Source of the DNA: a virus | UHGV virus genome: UHGV-0140551 | Strand: one strand, 5' to 3' | DNA length: 19,891 nt | Part shown: one piece after another, positions 1 to 12,726 of the stretch | Position numbering within the stretch: the stretch's first letter is position 1 | Layout of the letters: every line of letters starts with the position of its first letter | Position numbers and translations under genes: made by a program | Notes under the pieces: generated by a model | What the model was told of the DNA's origin: nothing | What the model saw: the letters and a program-made list of their open reading frames with translations, nothing else | Database searches by the model: none

Positions 1-136
1 TTGTTTCATAACACGCTTTGGATGTAGCGCGAATACGTTATCAGTTAAGACGCTCCTATTAACACCCCACAGCGAACAAACACTTACCATATAAAACAAC
101 TAGTTAAAGTAATTTTTAATGCAGTGAATTGCAGTG

Positions 137-1186
137 TTATGCAACCTCTGCCGCCACATTGTCGCCAACATACAGCGATAACGGATTGAGGGTTACAGCT
201 TGTTCAAGGTGGTCAGGAGCAAAGTGCGCATACTTCATTGTTTCTCGAATATTGGCATGTCCGAGAATTTTCTGCAGCACCAGTATATTCCCTCCGTTCA
301 TCATAAAATGCGCACCAAAAGTATGACGCAAAACGTGCGTCTTCTGCCCTTCCGTCAATTCAATATTCGTTAGTTTGAGCATCTTTTTAAACTCCTGATA
401 GCAGGGTTTAAACATTCTGCCTTGACGTACGGACAACTCGTCGTACAGCCATTTAGGAATAGGAACTGTGCGATTCTTCTTACCTTTGGTTTTGGTGAAC
501 GTTAGTTTATATGGAGAAAGTTGAGGTCGGGTCAATCTCTCCGCTTCCCCCCATCGAGCGCCGGTTGCAAGGCACACCTTAACAATCATGGTGAGGTCTT
601 CTTTGCCGTATTGCTCGCAGGCTCGAAACAGCTCCGGGAGCTGAGACAAAGTTAGCCAGGACATTTCTTTCTCAGCTTCTTTGAATACTCGGATCCCATC
701 AAGTGGATTGGGTAGGCTCCACTCCCCTAACCGGCGGAGCTCATTAAACACTGCTTCTAGGTATTGTTGTTCGCGATTGACGGTTATAGGTTTGGCGATC
801 CATTTCGAGGGGTCTTTATGATAACCATTGTCTATTTCACCACGTAATCGACGGTCACGATAATGAGCCCAGTCTTTCGCGGTAAGGCGAGATGCAATCG
901 GGTCGCCAAGTCCATTACATACGATTTGAAGCTTTGCAAATCTCGACTTACTGGCGACTAACGCTTGACCGTGCAAATTGTGCCAAAGCTGAATAATCTC
1001 GCTTAAGCGTCGGCGGTCTTCTTTCTTGCCGAGCCACGGCTTATCTTCACTCTCGCTTTTGGTAAATGCTTCAAATGCCTCGGCCTCACCTTTGGTATTG
1101 AACTGCCGACGTATACGCCGCCCTTCTCGACCATTTGGATAGAGTTCACACAACCATTTTCCACTTTTTTGTTTACTTACAGTCAT
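137..1186 (-). CDS. int: Tyrosine-type site-specific integrase (P2 Int-like)
   Basis: 349-aa ORF with the C-terminal catalytic region HVLRHTFGAHFMMNGGNILVLQKILGHANIRETMKYAH typical of phage tyrosine recombinases. It sits at the prophage edge and overlaps the att core. Confidence 0.93.
   Translation of the reverse strand: MTVSKQKSGKWLCELYPNGREGRRIRRQFNTKGEAEAFEAFTKSESEDKPWLGKKEDRRRLSEIIQLWHNLHGQALVASKSRFAKLQIVCNGLGDPIASRLTAKDWAHYRDRRLRGEIDNGYHKDPSKWIAKPITVNREQQYLEAVFNELRRLGEWSLPNPLDGIRVFKEAEKEMSWLTLSQLPELFRACEQYGKEDLTMIVKVCLATGARWGEAERLTRPQLSPYKLTFTKTKGKKNRTVPIPKWLYDELSVRQGRMFKPCYQEFKKMLKLTNIELTEGQKTHVLRHTFGAHFMMNGGNILVLQKILGHANIRETMKYAHFAPDHLEQAVTLNPLSLYVGDNVAAEVA
142..170. repeat. Left attachment-site repeat (attL core), overlapping the 3' end of int
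   Basis: CAACCTCTGCCGCCACATTGTCGCCAACA matches 19829-19857 at 25 of 29 positions, with the first 15 identical. It encodes the last codons of the integrase (…VGDNVAAEVA). Confidence 0.7.
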
Positions 1187-1210
1187 TGCGATACCGAGGC
1201 TAAAAGAAAA

Positions 1211-1549
1211 TTAATTACAAAGGGCTGTAGCGGCATCAATCACCGGTGAAATTGAAATTTTAACGCCGTCATACTCAGGGTCATCCTTCCATACGTCATC
1301 TAAGTTAGACCCCTCCAGCTTTCCTGATTTAACAGCATCTACCGCCATGCCATTCAGAGGATATCTATCATCAGTTTTGATGTCATACACAAAAGCATAA
1401 GCACGGTTAACACATGATACCTTTGCCTTTTCAAAGGTTAGAGGCCACTTGTCACCATATGCAGCGCCGTCTATCTCTTTAAACTTCTCAGCGGCTATGG
1501 CTGAGGAAGAAAGTGCAATGCAGACTATCGCAAATATAAACTTTTTCAT
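1211..1549 (-). CDS. Small secreted protein with an N-terminal signal peptide; cargo gene between repressor and integrase
   Basis: 112-aa ORF beginning MKKFIFAIVCIALSSSAIAA (a typical Sec signal), with a perfect AAGGAG ribosome-binding site. That site overlaps the stop codon of the upstream repressor gene. Confidence 0.75.
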   Translation of the reverse strand: MKKFIFAIVCIALSSSAIAAEKFKEIDGAAYGDKWPLTFEKAKVSCVNRAYAFVYDIKTDDRYPLNGMAVDAVKSGKLEGSNLDDVWKDDPEYDGVKISISPVIDAATALCN

Positions 1550-1558
1550 TACTGCTCC

Positions 1559-2404
1559 TTAAACATGCTTTTCCAAAGTAAAAATAACCGCACCTGATGG
1601 TGTGATATCTGAAATATTACATTCAAACTCAGCAGACTTATTTGATAACCTGACCTTTCCGCCTGGCAACCTGATTACGTCAAAAACATCGAGTGCGCCA
1701 TCAATACCAATAAGCCAGCGACCATTTCCTATCTTCGAGTTAGAACTATCAACAAGCCAAGATGTGCTCACACCATCAATAAACACTAAATCATCAGTAT
1801 TTGATGGAACCATAGATATATCAGGAGTCCAGCGTCCGATATCTTTGAGTTCGCCAGCCTCGAGGCGGCACTTTCTAATCGTTAAAGCATTTGCCGGTTC
1901 ACCATCATTACTGTTACGCATCTGGCCTTTTCCGGTTGATAACCATTCTAACGATACGCCAGTATCAAGGGCGCAAGTGACAACCACGTCACCGGGGAAA
2001 AAATCGCGTCTAACCCAAGTGCTTATAGTGCCGGAAGATATACCTAATAAATCTCCAAGCTCTTTTTGCAGAGTAAAACCATACGCATCGAGAATCCGAC
2101 GCAGAACCGCCCTCCCTCCATTTGCCATGATTTCATCATAGAGTTGCTTACCTTTAAGCTTAGTTTTCACCACTTCAAATCTTGCATTTGCAAGCTCACC
2201 ATTAATTAGCCATCGCAGGTCAGCTCCAGTATCAAGAGCACACTCAACGAAAACGTTGCTAGGGATTACGTTTCTAGCAAGCCAGCTACTCACGTTGTTT
2301 GCATGTATGCCAAGCCTTTCGGCTAGTTCCTTTTGCTGCTTAAAGCCGTATGCAGAAAGGACACGTTCCAATGCGGCAGACGCATTAACATCATTTTTAG
2401 ACAT
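1559..2404 (-). CDS. CI-type immunity repressor (186 CI-like) with two tandem N-terminal HTH repeats
   Basis: Start trimmed to the ATG at 2402-2404 (MSKNDVNASAALERVLSAYGF…); the longer ORF N-terminus is cysteine-rich junk that would overlap the divergent operon. Two homologous about 60-aa HTH segments (LERVLSAYGFKQQKELAERLGI… and LRRILDAYGFTLQKELGDLLGI…) precede a distinct C-terminal domain. Confidence 0.8.
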   Translation of the reverse strand: MSKNDVNASAALERVLSAYGFKQQKELAERLGIHANNVSSWLARNVIPSNVFVECALDTGADLRWLINGELANARFEVVKTKLKGKQLYDEIMANGGRAVLRRILDAYGFTLQKELGDLLGISSGTISTWVRRDFFPGDVVVTCALDTGVSLEWLSTGKGQMRNSNDGEPANALTIRKCRLEAGELKDIGRWTPDISMVPSNTDDLVFIDGVSTSWLVDSSNSKIGNGRWLIGIDGALDVFDVIRLPGGKVRLSNKSAEFECNISDITPSGAVIFTLEKHV

Positions 2405-2425
2405 ATGACACCAACAAGAATTTTG

Positions 2426-2454
2426 TTTACAACCAAAATTTAGCGATCTATATT
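2426..2454 (+). promoter_or_regulatory. Candidate early lytic promoter (pR-like): -35 TTTACA, 17-bp spacer, -10 TATATT
   Basis: Sigma70-like hexamers with ideal spacing, sitting between the repressor start and the first early gene at 2518. Confidence 0.5.
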
Positions 2455-2517
2455 GGTGCTCACCGACCAAGATGCACACCACTGCACTACATTTCAAACA
2501 ACAGGAGATAATGCGAT

Positions 2518-2889
2518 ATGTCAGATGCAAAATCAATCTCGACGCACGACTCGCAAAACTCACAAAATCAAACTGTGCTGCTAGACCCAACACAGTTTGA
2601 TGCCATCGTTACCGCCATGCTGCCAGCTCTACAGACAATGATTCGCTCCGCTATGTCAGACACGATGACTGTGAAAGACTTCGCCGCTACTCGCGGTGTT
2701 AGCGAGCGTCTGGTCTGGCAATGGCTCGATGAGGGAGTCCTTCTCAAAGCTCCGACCAAAGACTTTTCCAACAAAGAGGAAGCTGCTAAACGAAGCCGAA
2801 CCCTCGTAAATGTAAAAGCATGGCGCGATAAGCTGACTCAACAAGCGATTGATTGTCGCTACATCGACCAGCGCACCGCTCTTAACTGA
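2518..2889 (+). CDS. Cox/Apl-like early regulator or excisionase (HTH protein, first gene of the early operon)
   Basis: 123-aa ORF with an AGGAG ribosome-binding site. It sits in the position of 186 apl / P2 cox and has an HTH-like segment (VKDFAATRGVSERLVWQWLDEGVL). Confidence 0.6.
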   Translation: MSDAKSISTHDSQNSQNQTVLLDPTQFDAIVTAMLPALQTMIRSAMSDTMTVKDFAATRGVSERLVWQWLDEGVLLKAPTKDFSNKEEAAKRSRTLVNVKAWRDKLTQQAIDCRYIDQRTALN

Positions 2890-2921
2890 ATTTGATTATG
2901 CAAGTTAGAGGGAATTTAACC

Positions 2922-3431
2922 ATGTTTGATTTTCAGGTTTCCAAACATCCCCACTATGACGAAGCATGCCGCATTTTCGCACAGCGTCACAACATGGCGA
3001 AGCTGGCCGAGCGTGCAGGTATGAACGTTCAAACGTTACGTAACAAGCTCAACCCGGAACAGCCTCACCAGTTCACGCCGCCTGAATTGTGGCTGCTGAC
3101 TGACCTGACCGAAGACTCAACCCTCATTGATGGTTTTTTAGCGCAGATTCACTGCCTACCATGCGTGCCGGTTAATGAGTTGGCTAAAGACAAATTGCAG
3201 TCTTATGTCATGCGCGCGATGCGTGAACTCGGCGAACTGGCGAGCGGCGCGGTATCTGATGAACGTCTGACCACTGCCCGTAAGCACAACATGATTGAAA
3301 GCGTTAACTCCGGCATTCGCATGTTGTCATTGTCGGCTCTGGCGCTGCATGCACGTCTGCAGACTAATCCAGCTATGTCGAGCGTGGTCGATACCATGAG
3401 CGGTATTGGCGCATCGTTTGGTCTGATTTGA
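2922..3431 (+). CDS. cII: Phage regulatory CII family protein (186 CII-like)
   Basis: Lies immediately after the apl-like gene, as 186 cII does. Start set to the ATG at 2922, which has a GAGGG ribosome-binding site, rather than the TTG at 2892. Confidence 0.6.
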   Translation: MFDFQVSKHPHYDEACRIFAQRHNMAKLAERAGMNVQTLRNKLNPEQPHQFTPPELWLLTDLTEDSTLIDGFLAQIHCLPCVPVNELAKDKLQSYVMRAMRELGELASGAVSDERLTTARKHNMIESVNSGIRMLSLSALALHARLQTNPAMSSVVDTMSGIGASFGLI

Positions 3432-3432
3432 G

Positions 3433-3639
3433 GTGCGTATGCTGAAAAGTGAACCGTCATTCGCATCGCTGCTCGTTAAGCAAAGCCCCGGCATGCACTA
3501 CGGCCACGGCTGGATCGCAGGTAAGGACGGCAAGCGCTGGCACCCGAGCCACTCGCAGGCTGATTTACTGGCTGGCCTCTCTACTCAAAAGCGGGGGGAA
3601 TCATGGCTATCGAAGCTGTTTCCGCGACTGTTCCGCTAA
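3433..3639 (+). CDS. Small early protein, positionally equivalent to 186 fil
   Basis: 68-aa ORF directly after the cII stop in the early operon. No motif recognised. Confidence 0.4.
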   Translation: MRMLKSEPSFASLLVKQSPGMHYGHGWIAGKDGKRWHPSHSQADLLAGLSTQKRGESWLSKLFPRLFR

Positions 3640-9188: not shown

Positions 9189-9722
9189 TTATTCTGGGTT
9201 GTCGAGGGTGTACTCTTTGAATCTGATGACCTCCATGCCGAGCCAGTCATTTACCTCCCTGAACCTGTCCTGTAGCGGCGACAGCTCGTTGCGCACAAAT
9301 ACCTTTGCCACCTTCTCAACATCACCGAGTGAACCGATATTCTCGGGCTTGCCGCCCATGAGCTGGAACGGTACGCGGTGCGCGTCCATCAGATCGGCGG
9401 CACTGGCCTTCTTGATGTTGAAAAAGTCATCCTTTGTGGCGACCTCGCTCAGTGGCACGATTTTGATGCCGTCCGGTTTTCCGCCGGGAGCGTAGAAAAA
9501 CAGGTTCTTAAAGTTGCCGAGCCCTTTTGAGTTGCGCATCGCCTCGCGCAGCGATTCGACGTCGGTCGCGCTCTGCGCCGGGTCAGTCACATACATGATG
9601 TAGCCTGCGTGCGCGCCGTTCTGATAATACTTGCGGCGGAACAGCGTCGCGGATTCATTCAGCCAAGCGGAATTGACCGTCCAGTCAGCCGAGATTGTGC
9701 CGTACCAAATTGACGCGACGCT
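9189..9722 (-). pseudogene. Portal protein (P2 gpQ-like), 3' fragment only
   Basis: The frame is open from 9722 down to the stop at 9189, with a portal-like C-terminal translation (…FFYAPGGKPDGIKIVPLSEVATKDDFFNIK…VFVRNELSPLQDRFREVNDWLGMEVIRFKEY…). The N-terminal half is absent; a stop lies at 9723-9725 and a J-like frame begins on the opposite strand. Confidence 0.6.
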
Positions 9723-9969
9723 CTACGTTTACCCCGGCCCCGAGTCTGAGCCCATCAGGCAGGCATCAGAACAAAAGCTGCAGAGTTACATCAGCGCGCA
9801 GCACCGCCTCGGGCGTGATATCCGTCTGTCGGCCATTTACGCGGCGCTGCATGTTGAGGGGGTGCAGCGTGTCGAACTGGCATCACCGCAGGCCGACATT
9901 GTGCTGAGTAAGTCGCAGGCGTCGAATTGTACTGAGTACCAGATAACTATCGGGGGCTCGGATGAGTGA
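9700..9969 (+). pseudogene. Baseplate assembly protein J (P2 gpJ-like), C-terminal fragment only
   Basis: The translation …LYVYPGPESEPIRQ…QHRLGRDIRLSAIYAALHVEGVQRVELASP…ITIGGSDE resembles the gpJ C-terminus. Only about 90 residues are present and the stop overlaps the gpI start, as in P2. Confidence 0.6.
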
Positions 9970-10570
9970 CCGGCTATTACCCGTTGGCTCGTCGCCGCTG
10001 GAGGTTGCCGCCGCCGCTGCGTTCTCTGAGATTCAGCGCGTGCCGGTACCGCTGCGCACCCTGTGGAACTGGCGCACCTGCCCGGTAAAGCTGCTGCCGT
10101 ATCTGGCGTGGGCGCTGTCGGTCGACAGGTGGGATGAGAAATGGCCGGAGGCGACAAAGCGCAACGTCTGCGCGTCCTCGTTTTTCGTCCATCAGCACAA
10201 AGGCACCATCAGCGCATTGCGTCGGGTCGTCGAGCCGCTCGGCTTTCTGATTGAGGTGCGCGAGTGGTGGCAACTCGACGAGGAGCCAGGCACATTCCGC
10301 CTCGTTGTTGGCGTCCTCGACAGCGGCATCACTGACGAAATGTATCAGGAGCTTGAGCGCCTGATTGAAGACGCCAAACCGGCAAGTCGCCACCTGACCG
10401 GGCTGGCTATCAGTCTGAGCTCGACCGGCGAACTGTATGTCGGCGCGGGATGCTATCACGGCGACGCGCTGACTGTTTACCCCTACACCCCCGAGGAGAT
10501 TGTCGTCGGCGGTGAATATTACCCGGCCTCGGCCATCCATTTGATTGATAACCTGAGAGTGAACGCATGA
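9962..10570 (+). CDS. Baseplate/tail protein I (P2 gpI-like)
   Basis: 202-aa ORF with conserved gpI segments (LLPYLAWALSVDRWDEKW, DAKPASRHL) and the typical start overlap with J. Confidence 0.85.
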   Translation: MSDRLLPVGSSPLEVAAAAAFSEIQRVPVPLRTLWNWRTCPVKLLPYLAWALSVDRWDEKWPEATKRNVCASSFFVHQHKGTISALRRVVEPLGFLIEVREWWQLDEEPGTFRLVVGVLDSGITDEMYQELERLIEDAKPASRHLTGLAISLSSTGELYVGAGCYHGDALTVYPYTPEEIVVGGEYYPASAIHLIDNLRVNA

Positions 10571-11523
10571 CCGCAAAATATTTTGCCATTCTGACCAATC
10601 AGGGCGCGGCGCGGCTGGCGAACGCGGCGGCACTCGGTACCAAACTCAACCTGACGCAGATGGCCGTCGGTGATGCGAATGGTACGTTGCCGACCCCTGA
10701 CCCGGCGCAGACGAAGCTCATTAACCAGAAACGCATCGCGCCGCTGAACCTGCTGACCGTTGACCCGGCCAATACCAGTCAGATTATCGCGGAACAGATT
10801 ATTCCCGAGAATGAAGGTGGTTTCTGGATCCGCGAGATTGGTCTCTATGACGATGATGGTATTCTGATTGCCGTGGCGAACTGTCCGGAGACCTACAAGC
10901 CACAACTGCAGGAGGGAAGCGGTCGCACGCAGACCATTCGCATGATTCTGATTGTGTCGAACACATCGGCAATCACCCTGAAAATCGACCCGGCAGTCGT
11001 GCTGGCAACGCGCCAGTATGTCGACGACAAGATTATCGAGGTGAAAGGATATGCTGATAACCTGATGAAAAAACATGTTGAGGCCGCCAATCCACACAAG
11101 CAGTACCCGTTAATCGCTAATGCTCTGAAAGAAATGGTTGACGCGGGACTGGCCGGCGACGTTCTTAAAAACCTTGGTTTGGGAGAGGGAGCAAAATTAG
11201 GCGCAGCGGTGTGTGTGACCGGCTCTACAGGCTATATGACTATCCCGGCAATGGTCGCCGGGAAAGAACGGGTGATCATATTGCAGTGGTTTGGTGCTAC
11301 TACAACTGATTATGTGACACCAGTAACTGCGAATTTCCCTATTGCATTCCCAAATGAGTGCATGATTCCGTTATTTAGTGATGTATCAACTGGGGCAGTT
11401 GATTTGAGTTCTACAGCCGCATATAGCTTAGCGGTGGGCCGATCATACTATACGACGGTAACAAGAACTCAGATTACATGTGCTGGCTACGGTGGCTTTA
11501 GAGTTTTCGCGATTGGATGGTGA
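10567..11523 (+). CDS. Tail fibre protein (P2 gpH-like): constant N-terminal region fused to the currently expressed variable C-terminal segment
   Basis: N-terminus matches the conserved gpH start ([18 protein letters not shown]…[22 protein letters not shown]…[18 protein letters not shown]…). A recombination site lies inside the gene at 11162-11187. Confidence 0.85.
11162..11187. repeat. Invertase crossover site (hix/gix-like), left copy, inside the tail fibre gene
   Basis: TTCTTAAAAACCTTGGTTTGGGAGAG resembles hix/gix sites and is an imperfect inverted repeat of 12711-12736. Confidence 0.6.
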
Positions 11524-11948
11524 TTAATATGTTTTATTCTGCAAAAGAAAATGCGTTCTACGCTGATGAGCTAAAAAGTATTTATGAAAATGCAGGTAGC
11601 TGGCCTGACGATGCCGTTGAAGTAGACTATTCCGTATTCGTTGAGTTTGCCGGAGAATCACCTAACGGAAAATTACGCGCTCCTAATTCTGATGGTTTAC
11701 CTGAATGGATAGATATTCCCGAACCAACTGAAGAGGAAATTATTGCGTTGGCAGAAGCCGAAAAATCGCGACTGCGTGCTTCAGCTGACTCTGAAATAGA
11801 ATGGCGGCAGGACGCCGTTGATGCGGGGATCGCGACGGAAGAAGAAACTGTTTCATTAGCCGAATGGAAAAAATACCGGGTGCTGCTGATGCGAGTTGAT
11901 ACAGCAGACCCGGACTGGCCTACTCCTCCGGCGACTCAGGCCAGTTGA
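11517..11948 (+). CDS. Tail fibre assembly chaperone (gpG/U-like), paired with the current fibre tip
   Basis: 143-aa ORF with the typical motif [10 protein letters not shown]…WPDDAVEV…; an alternative start is the ATG at 11529. Its 3' end overlaps the convergent paralogue. Confidence 0.85.
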
Positions 11949-12351
11949 TATCTGGTGCGCTGGATATGTCCACAGATTCCAGCGCATCGAGATAATCCAG
12001 CCACTCGTTATACTGGGCCTTCTCGTCGTCTGTAAGTCGCCCCAGCGCAGCTTTACCCGGCCACTGCTTGCTGTTTATATACTCATTAGCCTGATCGATA
12101 CGATACTGTTTTTCAGCTTCAGCTGCTGCGATTTCCTCCTCATGGCTTAAAGGTGGAATGTCTACCCATGCCGGCATTCCATCCTCAGTAGCTCCACGAG
12201 TTTTACCCTCTGGTGGCATCCCCGAATATTCAGTGAATGTCTCATCTGAGACGGCTATGAGATCGTCAGGCCAGTTTCTACTCGCTTCATAAACATCTCT
12301 GAGCTCATCAGGGTAGAAAGCGTTATTTAATGCTGAATAAAAATAAGCCAT
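11920..12351 (-). CDS. Alternative tail fibre assembly chaperone (U'-like) in inverted orientation
   Basis: 143-aa paralogue ([22 protein letters not shown]…WPDDLIAV…) on the opposite strand, convergent with and overlapping the 11517-11948 gene by 29 nt. Confidence 0.8.
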
Positions 12352-12354
12352 TTA

Positions 12355-12726
12355 TTAATACCCCACAGCAAAATAGTTAAACCCGCCAGCGCCGATGGAT
12401 GATTCAGCGTTGGTTCCTGTCTGATAAGCGCGTAGCTGGAAATTAGTTCTCGTAAAATCCTGGGCGGTTAACGCAAAACCTTGACCTGTACCCCCAACAC
12501 TCTGGTCTGTTGCAACAACACATAGCGCCCTGGTTGGAAACGCAATCGGGAATGATACTGTTTCTGGGGATGTTCTCGTTATGGCTATTGCCCATTGAAG
12601 AATTAACCCGCCTGGCAGGTATTGATACCCCGAATCGGCTCGCTGATTACCAAATGAAGACATGTCCGGAATCTGTCCGGAACCAGTGCCAACATTTTTT
12701 TTTGCCGCATCTCCTAAACCAACCTT
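12355..12726 (-). CDS. Alternative tail fibre C-terminal segment (Sv'-like), lacking its own start; expressed only after inversion
   Basis: The frame is open from the recombination site at about 12726 to the stop at 12355. Its …KVGLGDAAKKNVGTGSGQIP… mirrors …[13 protein letters not shown]… at the left site, and its stop is followed by the chaperone start. Confidence 0.65.
   Translation of the reverse strand, partial: KVGLGDAAKKNVGTGSGQIPDMSSFGNQRADSGYQYLPGGLILQWAIAITRTSPETVSFPIAFPTRALCVVATDQSVGGTGQGFALTAQDFTRTNFQLRAYQTGTNAESSIGAGGFNYFAVGY

What the first reader, a model, noticed from the sequence alone, without database searches (positions are those of the whole stretch)
1211..1561. Secreted small protein gene translationally coupled to the repressor: lysogen-expressed conversion candidate
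Seen in sequence: the 112-aa ORF has a typical cleavable signal peptide, and its perfect SD (AAGGAG) overlaps the repressor stop codon, so it is transcribed and translated with CI in the lysogenic transcript. Inference: genes expressed from the immunity transcript are classic lysogenic-conversion or superinfection-exclusion genes; a periplasmic or secreted product could block phage DNA entry or alter the cell envelope.
Basis: inference. Interest (0 to 1): 0.5.

Follow-up and report, generated by a model that had tools for sequence, protein, structure and literature searches.

The report
Prophage periplasmic YebY-like cargo gene
A small secreted protein gene sits between the repressor and integrase genes of a 186/PSP3-like prophage; it is a known but uncharacterised phage relative of the E. 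coli periplasmic protein YebY, one of many alternative envelope-directed cargo genes at that position, and most plausibly helps the lysogen at the cell envelope, for instance by excluding other phages.

Summary
On the minus strand, 1549..1211 encodes a 112-aa protein with a signal peptide. Its AAGGAG (1560..1555) overlaps the TAA stop of the cI repressor (1561..1559). The gene lies 24 nt upstream of int, with no terminator-like site in either junction.

The protein is a DUF2511/YebY-family member: Pfam E = 1e-18, PDB 7N0J E = 4e-8, conserved Trp and Cys pair, and only YebY and MlbQ as fold matches. It is the homologue of Salmonella phage PSP3 orf28 (phrog_2950, function unknown). A 2021 YebY paper had already noted this repressor–recombinase context.

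It is accessory, not core. Phage 186 lacks it. Among 59 related loci with both cI and int, 17 carry DUF2511, 20 have cI abutting int, 21 carry other cargo and one has a disrupted cI. About 14 of about 15 cargo families start with a signal peptide or membrane helix.

DUF2511 alleles are old and reassort independently of cI and int. One example has cI and int at 98% identity and the ORF at 64%. Divergence is concentrated in residues 79–112, under overall purifying selection.

The closest functional precedent is Glo of Vibrio phage K139, a periplasmic exclusion protein in cI–orf2–glo–int. It is not homologous.

Lysogen expression and the function are inferred, not shown. Interest is modest.

The parts
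1211..1549 (-). CDS of the 112-aa DUF2511/YebY-family preprotein (homologue of PSP3 orf28)
   Evidence: ORF list and translation. Pfam PF10709 E = 1.1e-18. phrog_2950 E = 1.8e-55. PDB 7N0J YebY E = 3.8e-8. 66% identical to PSP3 orf28.
1493..1549 (-). Signal peptide coding part (residues 1-19: MKKFIFAIVCIALSSSAIA). It resembles the type-B allele, whereas the mature part resembles type A.
   Evidence: Hydrophobicity 2.95 and an A-x-A site. Ala20-Glu21-Lys22 is invariant or nearly invariant in 22 homologues. 16/20 residues identical to type B against 41% identity in residues 79-112.
1555..1560 (-). Shine-Dalgarno AAGGAG, 5 nt before the ATG, overlapping the cI stop codon (1559-1561) by two bases
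   Evidence: Sequence read directly. TAAGGAG/TAAGGGA conserved at the cI stop in 30 of 31 related loci.
1214..1315 (-). Hypervariable C-terminal third (residues 79-112). It distinguishes allele types A and B and includes the conserved C-terminal Cys111.
   Evidence: 14/34 residues identical between types A and B, against 43/58 for residues 21-78. Nucleotide identity drops to 48-51% between flanks that are 93-100% identical. dN is 0.6-0.75. AF2 pLDDT is below 50 at residues 79-98.
1412..1414 (-). Codon of Cys46, partner of Cys111 (codon 1217-1219). The pair aligns with the YebY Cys48-Cys113 disulfide.
   Evidence: HMMER alignment to 7N0J. Cys46 is invariant and Cys111 nearly invariant in 22 homologues. 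The disulfide is described in PMC8689200.
1559..2404 (-). cI repressor (281 aa; two Phage_CI_repr HTH domains plus Phage_CI_C), first gene of the leftward operon
   Evidence: Pfam E = 1.5e-47 and 4.6e-19. phrog_4. Annotated as CI in E. coli and in phage relatives.
137..1186 (-). Tyrosine integrase, last gene of the operon. There is no SD, and a conserved GCCTCGGT lies 14 nt upstream of the ATG. The prophage end is near position 43.
   Evidence: Pfam Int_N and Phage_integrase. Junction sequences. E. coli matches begin at window position 43, next to yfiB.
2508..2536 (-). Candidate pL (TTGATT-17-CATTAT), a consensus match only. It faces the candidate pR at 2426-2454 (+).
   Evidence: Own scan, 8/12 matches. 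pR-like site 10/12. The face-to-face pR/pL layout is annotated in 186 and K139.

Best explanation
Shown by sequence:
- This is a real, selectively maintained gene. It encodes a small Sec-exported, disulfide-stabilised periplasmic protein of the DUF2511 (YebY/MlbQ) fold.
- It occupies a variable cargo slot between cI and int of a 186/PSP3-like (Eganvirus-type) prophage.

Inferred from operon anatomy and from annotated relatives:
- It is transcribed with cI and int from the lysogenic promoter, and from the CII-dependent establishment promoter. It is then translated from its own strong SD next to the cI stop, so it would be made in lysogens.

Inferred mechanism, which is my commitment:
- The mature protein of about 10 kDa acts in the periplasm as a binder or blocker that protects the lysogen. 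Most likely this is superinfection exclusion after adsorption: it would bind a component that an incoming phage needs to cross the periplasm or inner membrane. The variable C-terminal third (residues 79-112) would set which target is recognised.

Rough probabilities:
- Real periplasmic protein: 0.9.
- Lysogen-expressed accessory factor acting at the envelope: 0.75.
- Phage exclusion specifically: about 0.4.
For: Family and fold:
- Pfam DUF2511, YebY 7N0J, conserved Trp35 and Cys46/Cys111.
- YebY and MlbQ are the only significant Foldseek matches.
- YebY is periplasmic with a Cys48-Cys113 disulfide (PMC8689200).

Operon:
- Gaps of 9 nt and 24 nt, and no terminator-like site in the junctions.
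- In 186 and K139 the lysogenic operon is annotated as running from pL through cI and int.

Accessory cargo slot:
- Of 59 cI+int loci, 17 carry DUF2511, 20 are empty, 21 carry other cargo and one has a disrupted cI.
- About 14 of about 15 cargo families begin with a signal peptide, lipobox or TM helix. Only 2 of 18 control proteins do.
- One locus carries a second secreted ORF beside DUF2511.

Allele behaviour typical of specificity cassettes:
- cI 98% and Int 98% identical while the ORF is 64-65% identical. ORF dS is 1.6, against 0.12 for cI and 0.57 for int.
- Divergence is focused in residues 79-112. dN/dS is 0.1-0.4, about 2-9 times that of cI and int.

Precedents at the same position:
- K139 Glo is annotated 'periplasmic protein; involved in phage exclusion' in PL-cI-orf2-glo-int, and is described as a soluble periplasmic Sie protein (PMC3952083).
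- The cI-int interval of K139-like Vibrio phages is a described anti-phage hotspot (PMC9122126).
- TP-J34 ltp lies between int and the repressor.

What the family is known to do: both studied members bind or dampen something outside the cytoplasm. MlbQ binds a lantibiotic, and YebY lowers YebZ copper import.
Against: - There are no expression data and no phenotype for this gene or for any phage homologue. phrog_2950 is 'unknown function'.
- There is no match to any PADLOC defence model.
- There is no sequence or profile similarity to Glo, so the precedent is positional only.
- No pairwise signal of positive selection was seen. The diversity looks like old alleles exchanged by recombination, which also fits functions other than an arms race.
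- Lysogenic-operon cargo can equally be virulence or fitness factors.
- The chromosomal homologue works in copper uptake, not phage defence.
- The AF2 model is only moderate (pLDDT 68) and poorest in the variable segment.
- The prophage in this window is itself defective. Protection of this particular element from superinfecting relatives is therefore of less obvious benefit to the phage, though it may still benefit the host.
Confidence: 0.4

Rival explanations
1. Host-physiology conversion through copper. The prophage protein acts like chromosomal YebY on the host YebZ/YobA copper importer. It would throttle copper entry, and with it copper-dependent MarR derepression, so changing copper handling or antibiotic tolerance of the lysogen.
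For: - It belongs to the same Pfam family and fold as YebY, with the Trp and the disulfide pair conserved.
- YebY co-expressed with YebZ lowers cellular copper, and the AZY proteins feed the mar response (PMC11923076).
- The hosts named for the phage homologues are all Enterobacterales (Escherichia, Salmonella, Klebsiella, Enterobacter, Pantoea). DUF2511/YebY-containing copD operons are reported from Salmonella, Enterobacter cloacae and Klebsiella as well as E. coli and Shigella.
Against: - Identity to YebY is only about 30%. The phage clade forms one tight cluster, with its nearest other DUF2511 clusters at 40% identity or less.
- Residues shared with enterobacterial YebY orthologues are few (12 invariant positions) and look like fold and signal-peptide positions. 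There are 8 fixed group-specific differences.
- No yobA or yebZ partner is nearby.
- A dosage-type modulator would not be expected to exist as deeply diverged alleles with a hypervariable C-terminal third.
- The other occupants of the slot are unrelated envelope proteins.
Confidence: 0.2
2. MlbQ-like immunity. The periplasmic protein sequesters an envelope-targeting peptide antibiotic or bacteriocin, for example a lipid-II-directed toxin. Lysogens would then be protected against competitors rather than against phages.
For: - MlbQ, a lantibiotic self-resistance protein proposed to bind NAI-107, is the other structurally characterised member of the family. It is the second-best fold match.
- A variable surface segment would suit ligand specificity.
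Against: - MlbQ is a lipoprotein encoded with ABC transporters in a producer cluster. Here there is no lipobox, no transporter and no toxin gene nearby.
- Fold similarity to MlbQ is weak (E = 0.04, 21% identity).
- Lantibiotics do not normally reach the enterobacterial periplasm (general knowledge).
Confidence: 0.12
3. There is no lysogen-benefit function. The ORF would be a passenger whose main role is structural or regulatory for the operon, for instance spacing and setting the level of int translation. Alternatively, it acts only during establishment or lytic growth of the phage itself.
For: - int has no SD and lies 24 nt after the ORF, with a conserved GCCTCGGT leader. Its translation may therefore depend on upstream ribosomes.
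- In relatives with an empty slot, cI abuts or overlaps int.
Against: - The protein sequence itself is conserved under purifying selection, with an intact signal peptide and Cys pair in all alleles. A spacer role does not require that.
- The ORF is kept intact and 100% identical in decaying prophages that carry different deletions.
- Export to the periplasm makes a role in cytoplasmic regulation unlikely.
Confidence: 0.1

Closest known systems
Salmonella phage PSP3 orf28 (NP_958085) and its homologues in phages SEN1, SW9, SI22, Midge, vB_EcoM-613R3 and RCIP0057 (PHROG 2950)
   Same: These are homologous (63-84% aa identity), have the same 112-aa length, and sit at the same position between cI and int. 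phrog_2950 matches full length.
   Different: The window allele is a recombinant, with a type-B-like signal peptide on a type-A mature domain. None of these homologues has a tested function.
E. coli YebY (PDB 7N0J), DUF2511, third gene of the yobA-yebZ-yebY copper-uptake operon
   Same: Same Pfam family, signal peptide, conserved Trp and Cys-Cys disulfide pair. It is the best sequence and fold match.
   Different: Identity is about 30%. The gene context is a phage lysogenic operon rather than AZY. The phage proteins form a separate subfamily. PMC8689200 already recorded that some yebY homologues lie between a XerD-type recombinase gene and a phage CI repressor gene.
Glo of Vibrio cholerae phage K139 (P2-related)
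   Same: It is a small Sec-exported soluble periplasmic protein. It is encoded immediately upstream of int in the PL-cI-...-int lysogenic operon and is annotated as involved in phage exclusion.
   Different: There is no detectable sequence or profile similarity. K139 has an extra orf2 between cI and glo. The resemblance is positional and topological, not membership.
MlbQ (PDB 2MVO), lantibiotic self-resistance lipoprotein of Microbispora
   Same: DUF2511 fold with the disulfide in the same place. It is an extracytoplasmic binder.
   Different: It is a lipoprotein with a long linker from a Gram-positive antibiotic cluster. Identity is 21% and there is no lipobox here.
cI-int anti-phage hotspot of K139-like Vibrionaceae prophages (Rousset et al. 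2022)
   Same: It is a variable cargo interval between the repressor and integrase of P2-related prophages.
   Different: The Vibrio hotspot holds cytoplasmic defence systems such as RM, Septu and PARIS. The enterobacterial slot found here holds one or two small genes that are almost all envelope-directed, and none matches PADLOC defence proteins apart from weak WYL-domain hits.

Membership tests
DUF2511 / YebY family (Pfam PF10709) | Match to the family HMM above the curated cut-off | tested here: met
   67.8 bits against a cut-off of 21, E = 1.1e-18, covering profile positions 5-87 of 87.
DUF2511 / YebY family (Pfam PF10709) | N-terminal signal peptide (extracytoplasmic location) | tested here: met
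   Basic n-region, hydrophobic core (H = 2.95) and an A-x-A site. This is a heuristic only, with no dedicated predictor and no experiment.
DUF2511 / YebY family (Pfam PF10709) | Two strictly conserved Cys forming the disulfide (YebY Cys48-Cys113), and the conserved Trp (YebY Trp37) | tested here: met
   Cys46, Cys111 and Trp35 align with them. Trp35 and Cys46 are invariant and Cys111 nearly invariant in 22 phage-clade sequences.
DUF2511 / YebY family (Pfam PF10709) | Fold: four-stranded antiparallel sheet packed by helices | tested here: inconclusive
   The AF2 model has four strands plus helices, but mean pLDDT is only 67.9. YebY (E = 2e-4, TM 0.5-0.6) and MlbQ are the only significant PDB matches.
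AZY-type YebY orthologue (copper uptake operon) | Encoded with yobA (CopC) and yebZ (CopD) | tested here: not met
   The neighbours are cI and int in the window and in all cI-linked loci.
Prophage superinfection-exclusion proteins of the lysogenic operon (functional class, e.g. K139 Glo) | Encoded in the repressor-integrase operon and co-directional with it | tested here: met
   Gaps of 9 nt and 24 nt, same strand, no terminator-like site between the genes.
Prophage superinfection-exclusion proteins of the lysogenic operon (functional class, e.g. K139 Glo) | Homology to Glo | tested here: not met
   BLASTP gives no alignment. hhalign probability is 1%.
Prophage superinfection-exclusion proteins of the lysogenic operon (functional class, e.g. 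K139 Glo) | Expression in lysogens and reduced plating or DNA entry of superinfecting phage | not testable with these tools
   This needs transcript mapping and plaque or DNA-entry assays.
Classical moron (autonomous transcription unit) | Own promoter and terminator, and deviant base composition | tested here: not met
   Promoter- and terminator-like sites are at chance level and none flanks the ORF. GC is 0.41-0.42, like the neighbouring cI.
MlbQ-type immunity lipoprotein | Lipobox with a lipidated Cys at the cleavage site, and adjacent ABC transporter genes | tested here: not met
   Cleavage is of the signal peptidase I type. The only early Cys (Cys10) lies inside the hydrophobic core. There is no transporter nearby.
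Known anti-phage defence systems (PADLOC-DB) | Match to a defence-protein model | tested here: not met
   No family at E <= 0.01. Sie proteins may be under-represented in a library of defence-system models (my assumption, not checked).

The most novel reading that the evidence does not exclude
The YebY/MlbQ fold has been recruited by enterobacterial 186/PSP3-like phages as a soluble periplasmic superinfection-exclusion factor, with target specificity set by the exchangeable C-terminal third (allele types A and B and others). More generally, the cI-int junction of these phages would be an unrecognised hotspot that carries almost exclusively envelope-acting cargo, expressed from the immunity transcript. 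If so, it would be the Enterobacterales counterpart of the K139 glo locus and of the Vibrio cI-int defence hotspot. It would also give the first phage-related function for DUF2511.
Probability: 0.35. Interest if true: 0.6.

Novelty: new member of a known kind. Interest (0 to 1): 0.35.

Why it matters
If the exclusion reading is right, it would give a function to a widespread domain of unknown function. It would also supply a small, easily tested periplasmic anti-phage protein with natural specificity variants.

It would further flag the repressor–integrase junction of P2/186-like prophages in Enterobacterales as a place to mine envelope-level exclusion and conversion genes. Current defence-system catalogues, built around cytoplasmic systems, miss these.

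If the copper reading is right instead, a prophage would be tuning the host copper import pathway linked to mar-dependent antibiotic tolerance.

Either way the gene is rare. About 1% of complete E. coli genomes carry the module. The finding as it stands is an annotated gene of unknown function in a plausible but unproven role.

Tried and rejected
- PADLOC scan of the ORF and nine other slot cargo proteins found nothing for the ORF. There were only weak WYL hits for one cargo.
- Foldseek against BFVD viral structures gave no match at E <= 0.001.
- BLASTP and hhalign against K139 Glo showed no similarity, so homology to Glo is rejected.
- RNA folding of both junctions gave structures no more stable than shuffles. 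A structure-enforced coupling or attenuator is therefore not supported.
- The promoter/terminator scan found nothing beyond chance, so the classical-moron reading is rejected.
- Rfam on the whole window gave no hits.
- The genome-contig scan with the family alignment returned only three loci, in Escherichia sp. and two Enterobacter. This was too few for a context survey.
- blastn 'distant' of the ORF in E. coli genomes under-detects diverged alleles: 24 genomes, against 67 that carry at least 80% of the 3.5-kb query.
- Proteomics papers mentioning DUF2511 were checked. In one the peptide clearly resembles chromosomal YebY, and in the other the origin cannot be told. Neither is informative.
- The K139 primary papers (PMC93736, PMC135448) are not held. 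Glo's properties are therefore cited from the GenBank annotation and from a secondary paper.
- I considered capture of host yebY by aberrant excision, because some P2-like prophages sit next to yebY. I rejected it as an explanation for this locus: the gene orientation and position do not fit, and identity to YebY is only about 30%.
- The 344-aa 'extended cI' ORF starting at GTG 2593 is an artefact of ORF listing. Homologues start at the ATG at 2404.
Full report
**1. What is in the sequence**

The finding lies on the minus strand. An ATG at 1549 opens a 112-aa ORF that ends at 1211. Read on that strand, the upstream junction is ...GAA AAG CAT GTT TAA GGAGCAGTA ATG. The hexamer AAGGAG (1560..1555) shares two bases with the stop codon (1561..1559) of the preceding gene and lies 5 nt before the start codon.

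The preceding gene (2404..1559) is a 281-aa CI repressor with two Phage_CI_repr domains and a Phage_CI_C domain. The following gene (1186..137) is a tyrosine integrase, 24 nt downstream and without a recognisable SD. On the plus strand come a Cox/Apl-like gene, cII, a DUF5347 gene and the replication gene A. This is the layout of a 186/PSP3-type (Eganvirus) prophage.

Complete E. coli genomes carry this region at up to 100% identity, beginning at window position 43, next to yfiB.

The N-terminus MKKFIFAIVCIALSSSAIA|AEK has a basic n-region, a strongly hydrophobic core and an A-x-A cleavage motif. There is no lipobox. The predicted mature protein is 93 aa, 10.2 kDa, pI 4.6.

The one part that is not demonstrated is translational coupling. 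The geometry allows it. However, the gene has its own strong SD, and the junction RNA folds no better than shuffled sequence.

**2. What the protein is**

- It matches Pfam DUF2511 (PF10709, 67.8 bits, cut-off 21).
- It matches PHROG 2950 over its full length, a family of unknown function.
- Its only PDB sequence match is E. coli YebY, 7N0J (E = 3.8e-8).
- Trp35, Cys46 and Cys111 align with YebY Trp37 and with the Cys48–Cys113 disulfide.
- An AlphaFold2 model from 22 homologues is of moderate quality (pLDDT 67.9, lowest at residues 79–98). [quoted passage not shown]

YebY is an experimentally periplasmic, disulfide-bonded monomer (PMC8689200). When co-expressed with the importer YebZ, it lowers copper uptake (PMC11923076).

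A search of 1.84 billion cluster representatives gives 490 DUF2511 clusters. The phage-type proteins fall into a single cluster, whose nearest neighbours are at most 40% identical.

**3. It is already an annotated phage gene**

tblastn finds the gene in ten phage records, covering seven distinct phages: PSP3 (orf28), SEN1, SW9, SI22, Midge ('putative periplasmic protein'), vB_EcoM-613R3 and Klebsiella phage RCIP0057. Identity is 63–84%, and in the two records examined in detail (PSP3, Midge) it lies between cI and int.

The 2021 YebY structure paper already remarks that in a number of Enterobacteriaceae yebY homologues lie between a XerD-type recombinase and a phage CI repressor.

No paper in the library gives a function for the phage protein.

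**4. Is it in the lysogenic transcript?**

This is inferred, not shown. Three lines support it:

- The three genes are co-directional, with 9-nt and 24-nt gaps.
- The consensus scan finds no terminator-like site between them. Its promoter-like hits are at the chance level: 5 found against 4.9 expected.
- In the curated records of 186 and K139, one promoter (pL/PL), plus the CII-activated pE in 186, transcribes cI and then int. The predicted terminator lies beyond att.

A pR-like site (2426–2454, plus strand) faces a weak pL-like site (2536–2508, minus strand), as in 186. Base composition does not set the gene apart from cI. It is operon-embedded cargo rather than a classical moron.

**5. Accessory or core?**

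Phage 186 lacks the gene: there cI abuts int, and an orf69 follows int.

I anchored a search on Int in viral contigs and classified what lies between cI and int. Of the 59 loci with both genes:

| Slot content | Loci |
|---|---|
| DUF2511 gene | 17 |
| Empty (gap of 1–75 nt) | 20 |
| Other co-directional ORFs | 21 |
| Disrupted cI | 1 |

- One of the empty loci, L046, has an Int 93% identical to the window's.
- One of the DUF2511 loci, L084, carries a divergent copy. It matches Pfam DUF2511 at E = 1e-13 and is about 45% identical to the distant viral homologue in L035.
- The other cargo belongs to about 14 unrelated families.
- Including DUF2511, there are about 15 cargo families. About 14 of them begin with a signal peptide, a lipobox (the DUF7424 protein in L060) or a membrane helix. 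By the same crude hydrophobicity measure, only 2 of 18 other proteins of the window do.
- One locus, L012, carries a second secreted ORF between cI and the DUF2511 gene.

The gene is one occupant of a variable slot that is strongly biased towards envelope proteins.

**6. How the gene varies**

Alleles reassort independently of their neighbours. Five loci have CI 97.5–98.6% and Int about 98% identical to the window, yet their DUF2511 protein is only 64–65% identical. Other loci show the reverse pattern.

Against L021, nucleotide identity runs as follows:

- 93–100% across cI;
- down to 48–51% in the 3' third of the ORF;
- back up within int.

Synonymous divergence is 1.6 for the ORF, against 0.12 for cI and 0.57 for int. 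dN/dS for the ORF is 0.1–0.4, which is purifying selection but 2–9 times the value for cI or int.

Two main mature types exist:

- A: ...NLDDVWKDDPEYDGVKISISPVIDAATALCN
- B: ...DLKEVLKKDPRDPLERADIGPVFSEAIALCE

They share 74% identity in residues 21–78 and 41% in residues 79–112. The window allele is itself a recombinant, combining a type-B-like signal peptide with a type-A mature domain.

This is the behaviour of old specificity cassettes exchanged by recombination. It is compatible with diversification of target recognition but does not prove it.

**7. Mechanism**

Both studied family members act outside the cytoplasm by binding or dampening something.

The closest precedent for the gene's position is Glo of the P2-related Vibrio phage K139. 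Glo is a soluble periplasmic protein encoded just upstream of int in PL–cI–orf2–glo–int, and it is annotated as involved in phage exclusion (PMC3952083).

The cI–int interval of K139-like phages has also been described as an anti-phage hotspot (PMC9122126). The Sie lipoprotein gene ltp of phage TP-J34 likewise lies between int and the repressor.

Glo shows no sequence or profile similarity to the present protein. This is an analogy of position and compartment, not membership.

Putting this together, I favour a lysogen-expressed periplasmic binder that blocks a step of superinfection after adsorption. The variable C-terminal third would be the specificity surface. I put this at about 0.4.

The rivals are:

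- modulation of the host YebZ/YobA copper importer (0.2);
- MlbQ-like sequestration of an envelope-targeting peptide or bacteriocin (0.12);
- a mainly operon-structural role, or a role limited to the establishment phase (0.1).

The remaining probability goes to functions not considered here.

Evidence against the favoured reading:

- there is no phenotype or expression data for any homologue;
- there is no PADLOC match;
- there is no pairwise signature of positive selection.

**8. Context caveat**

The prophage in the window is defective. The portal gene is reduced to its last 135 codons and abuts a C-terminal fragment of the baseplate gene J. Terminase, capsid, lysis and most baseplate genes are therefore absent.

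That junction occurs in none of 5,426 complete E. coli genomes. The copy in E. coli MB06232, which is 100% identical over window positions 43–3500, carries a different deletion.

The ORF is 99.7–100% identical at the nucleotide level over its full length in 17 E. coli genomes. About 67 of 5,426 genomes (1.2%) carry at least 80% of the first 3.5 kb of the window. All the listed records among them have a DUF2511 gene there.

**9. Verdict**

- The gene is a member of a known family, at a position already noted in the literature.
- The new elements here are modest:
  - the cI–int junction in enterobacterial 186/PSP3-like prophages is a variable slot dominated by envelope-directed cargo;
  - the DUF2511 alleles behave as exchangeable cassettes with a hypervariable C-terminal third.

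Noticed in passing
window 9189-9969: The prophage is defective. The portal gene is cut to its C-terminal 135 codons (minus strand) and directly abuts a C-terminal baseplate-J fragment (plus strand). Terminase, capsid, lysis and most baseplate genes are missing. This junction is found in none of 5,426 complete E. coli genomes, and the otherwise identical copy in E. coli MB06232 has a different deletion.
   Followed up: partly
window 10567-12663: The tail-fibre region holds a fibre gene and an assembly gene on the plus strand. A second assembly gene and a C-terminal fibre fragment follow on the minus strand, with a 57-nt, 77% inverted repeat (11532-11588 / 12286-12342). It looks like an alternative or invertible fibre cassette, but no invertase gene was seen.
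   Followed up: no
L012 3570-3974: One related viral contig carries an extra 134-aa ORF with a signal peptide (no Pfam or PADLOC match) inserted between cI and the DUF2511 gene. The slot can therefore hold two secreted cargo genes.
   Followed up: partly
L096-L114 (e.g. L096 3501-5206): A group of P2-like prophages (Int 56-62% identical) lies about 350 bp from a host yebY orthologue on the opposite strand. These phages therefore integrate next to the chromosomal DUF2511 gene. Most of them also have a LexA-box-like palindrome (TACTGT-N8-ACAGTA) just upstream of int and no CI homologue.
   Followed up: no
L035 2832-3194; L036 1069-1656; L037 12-257: More distant DUF2511 genes (44-49% identical) sit at the ogr end of P2-like prophages, next to host mug/rpoD in L035 and L036. 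In L036 the domain is fused to an N-terminal zinc-ribbon and hydrophobic segment. DUF2511 may be recurrent cargo at a second prophage position, or it may be a host gene at the attachment site.
   Followed up: no
window 1187-1210 and related loci: int has no Shine-Dalgarno sequence. A conserved GCCTCGGT lies 14 nt upstream of its ATG in every DUF2511-bearing locus with Int at least 90% identical, and a related CTCGGT occurs in more distant ones. Its function is unknown.
   Followed up: partly
window 2405-2593: The ORF list extends cI to 344 aa from a GTG at 2593. Homologues and RefSeq annotation start at the ATG at 2404, so the extension overlaps the divergent promoter region and is an artefact.
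   Followed up: yes
L060 2824-3498; L051 2917-3420; L063 2874-3473: Other occupants of the cI-int slot include a DUF7424 lipoprotein, a bPH/GRAM plus SHOCT protein (the only cargo without an N-terminal hydrophobic segment) and membrane-anchored proteins with a weak WYL-domain match. All are uncharacterised.
   Followed up: partly
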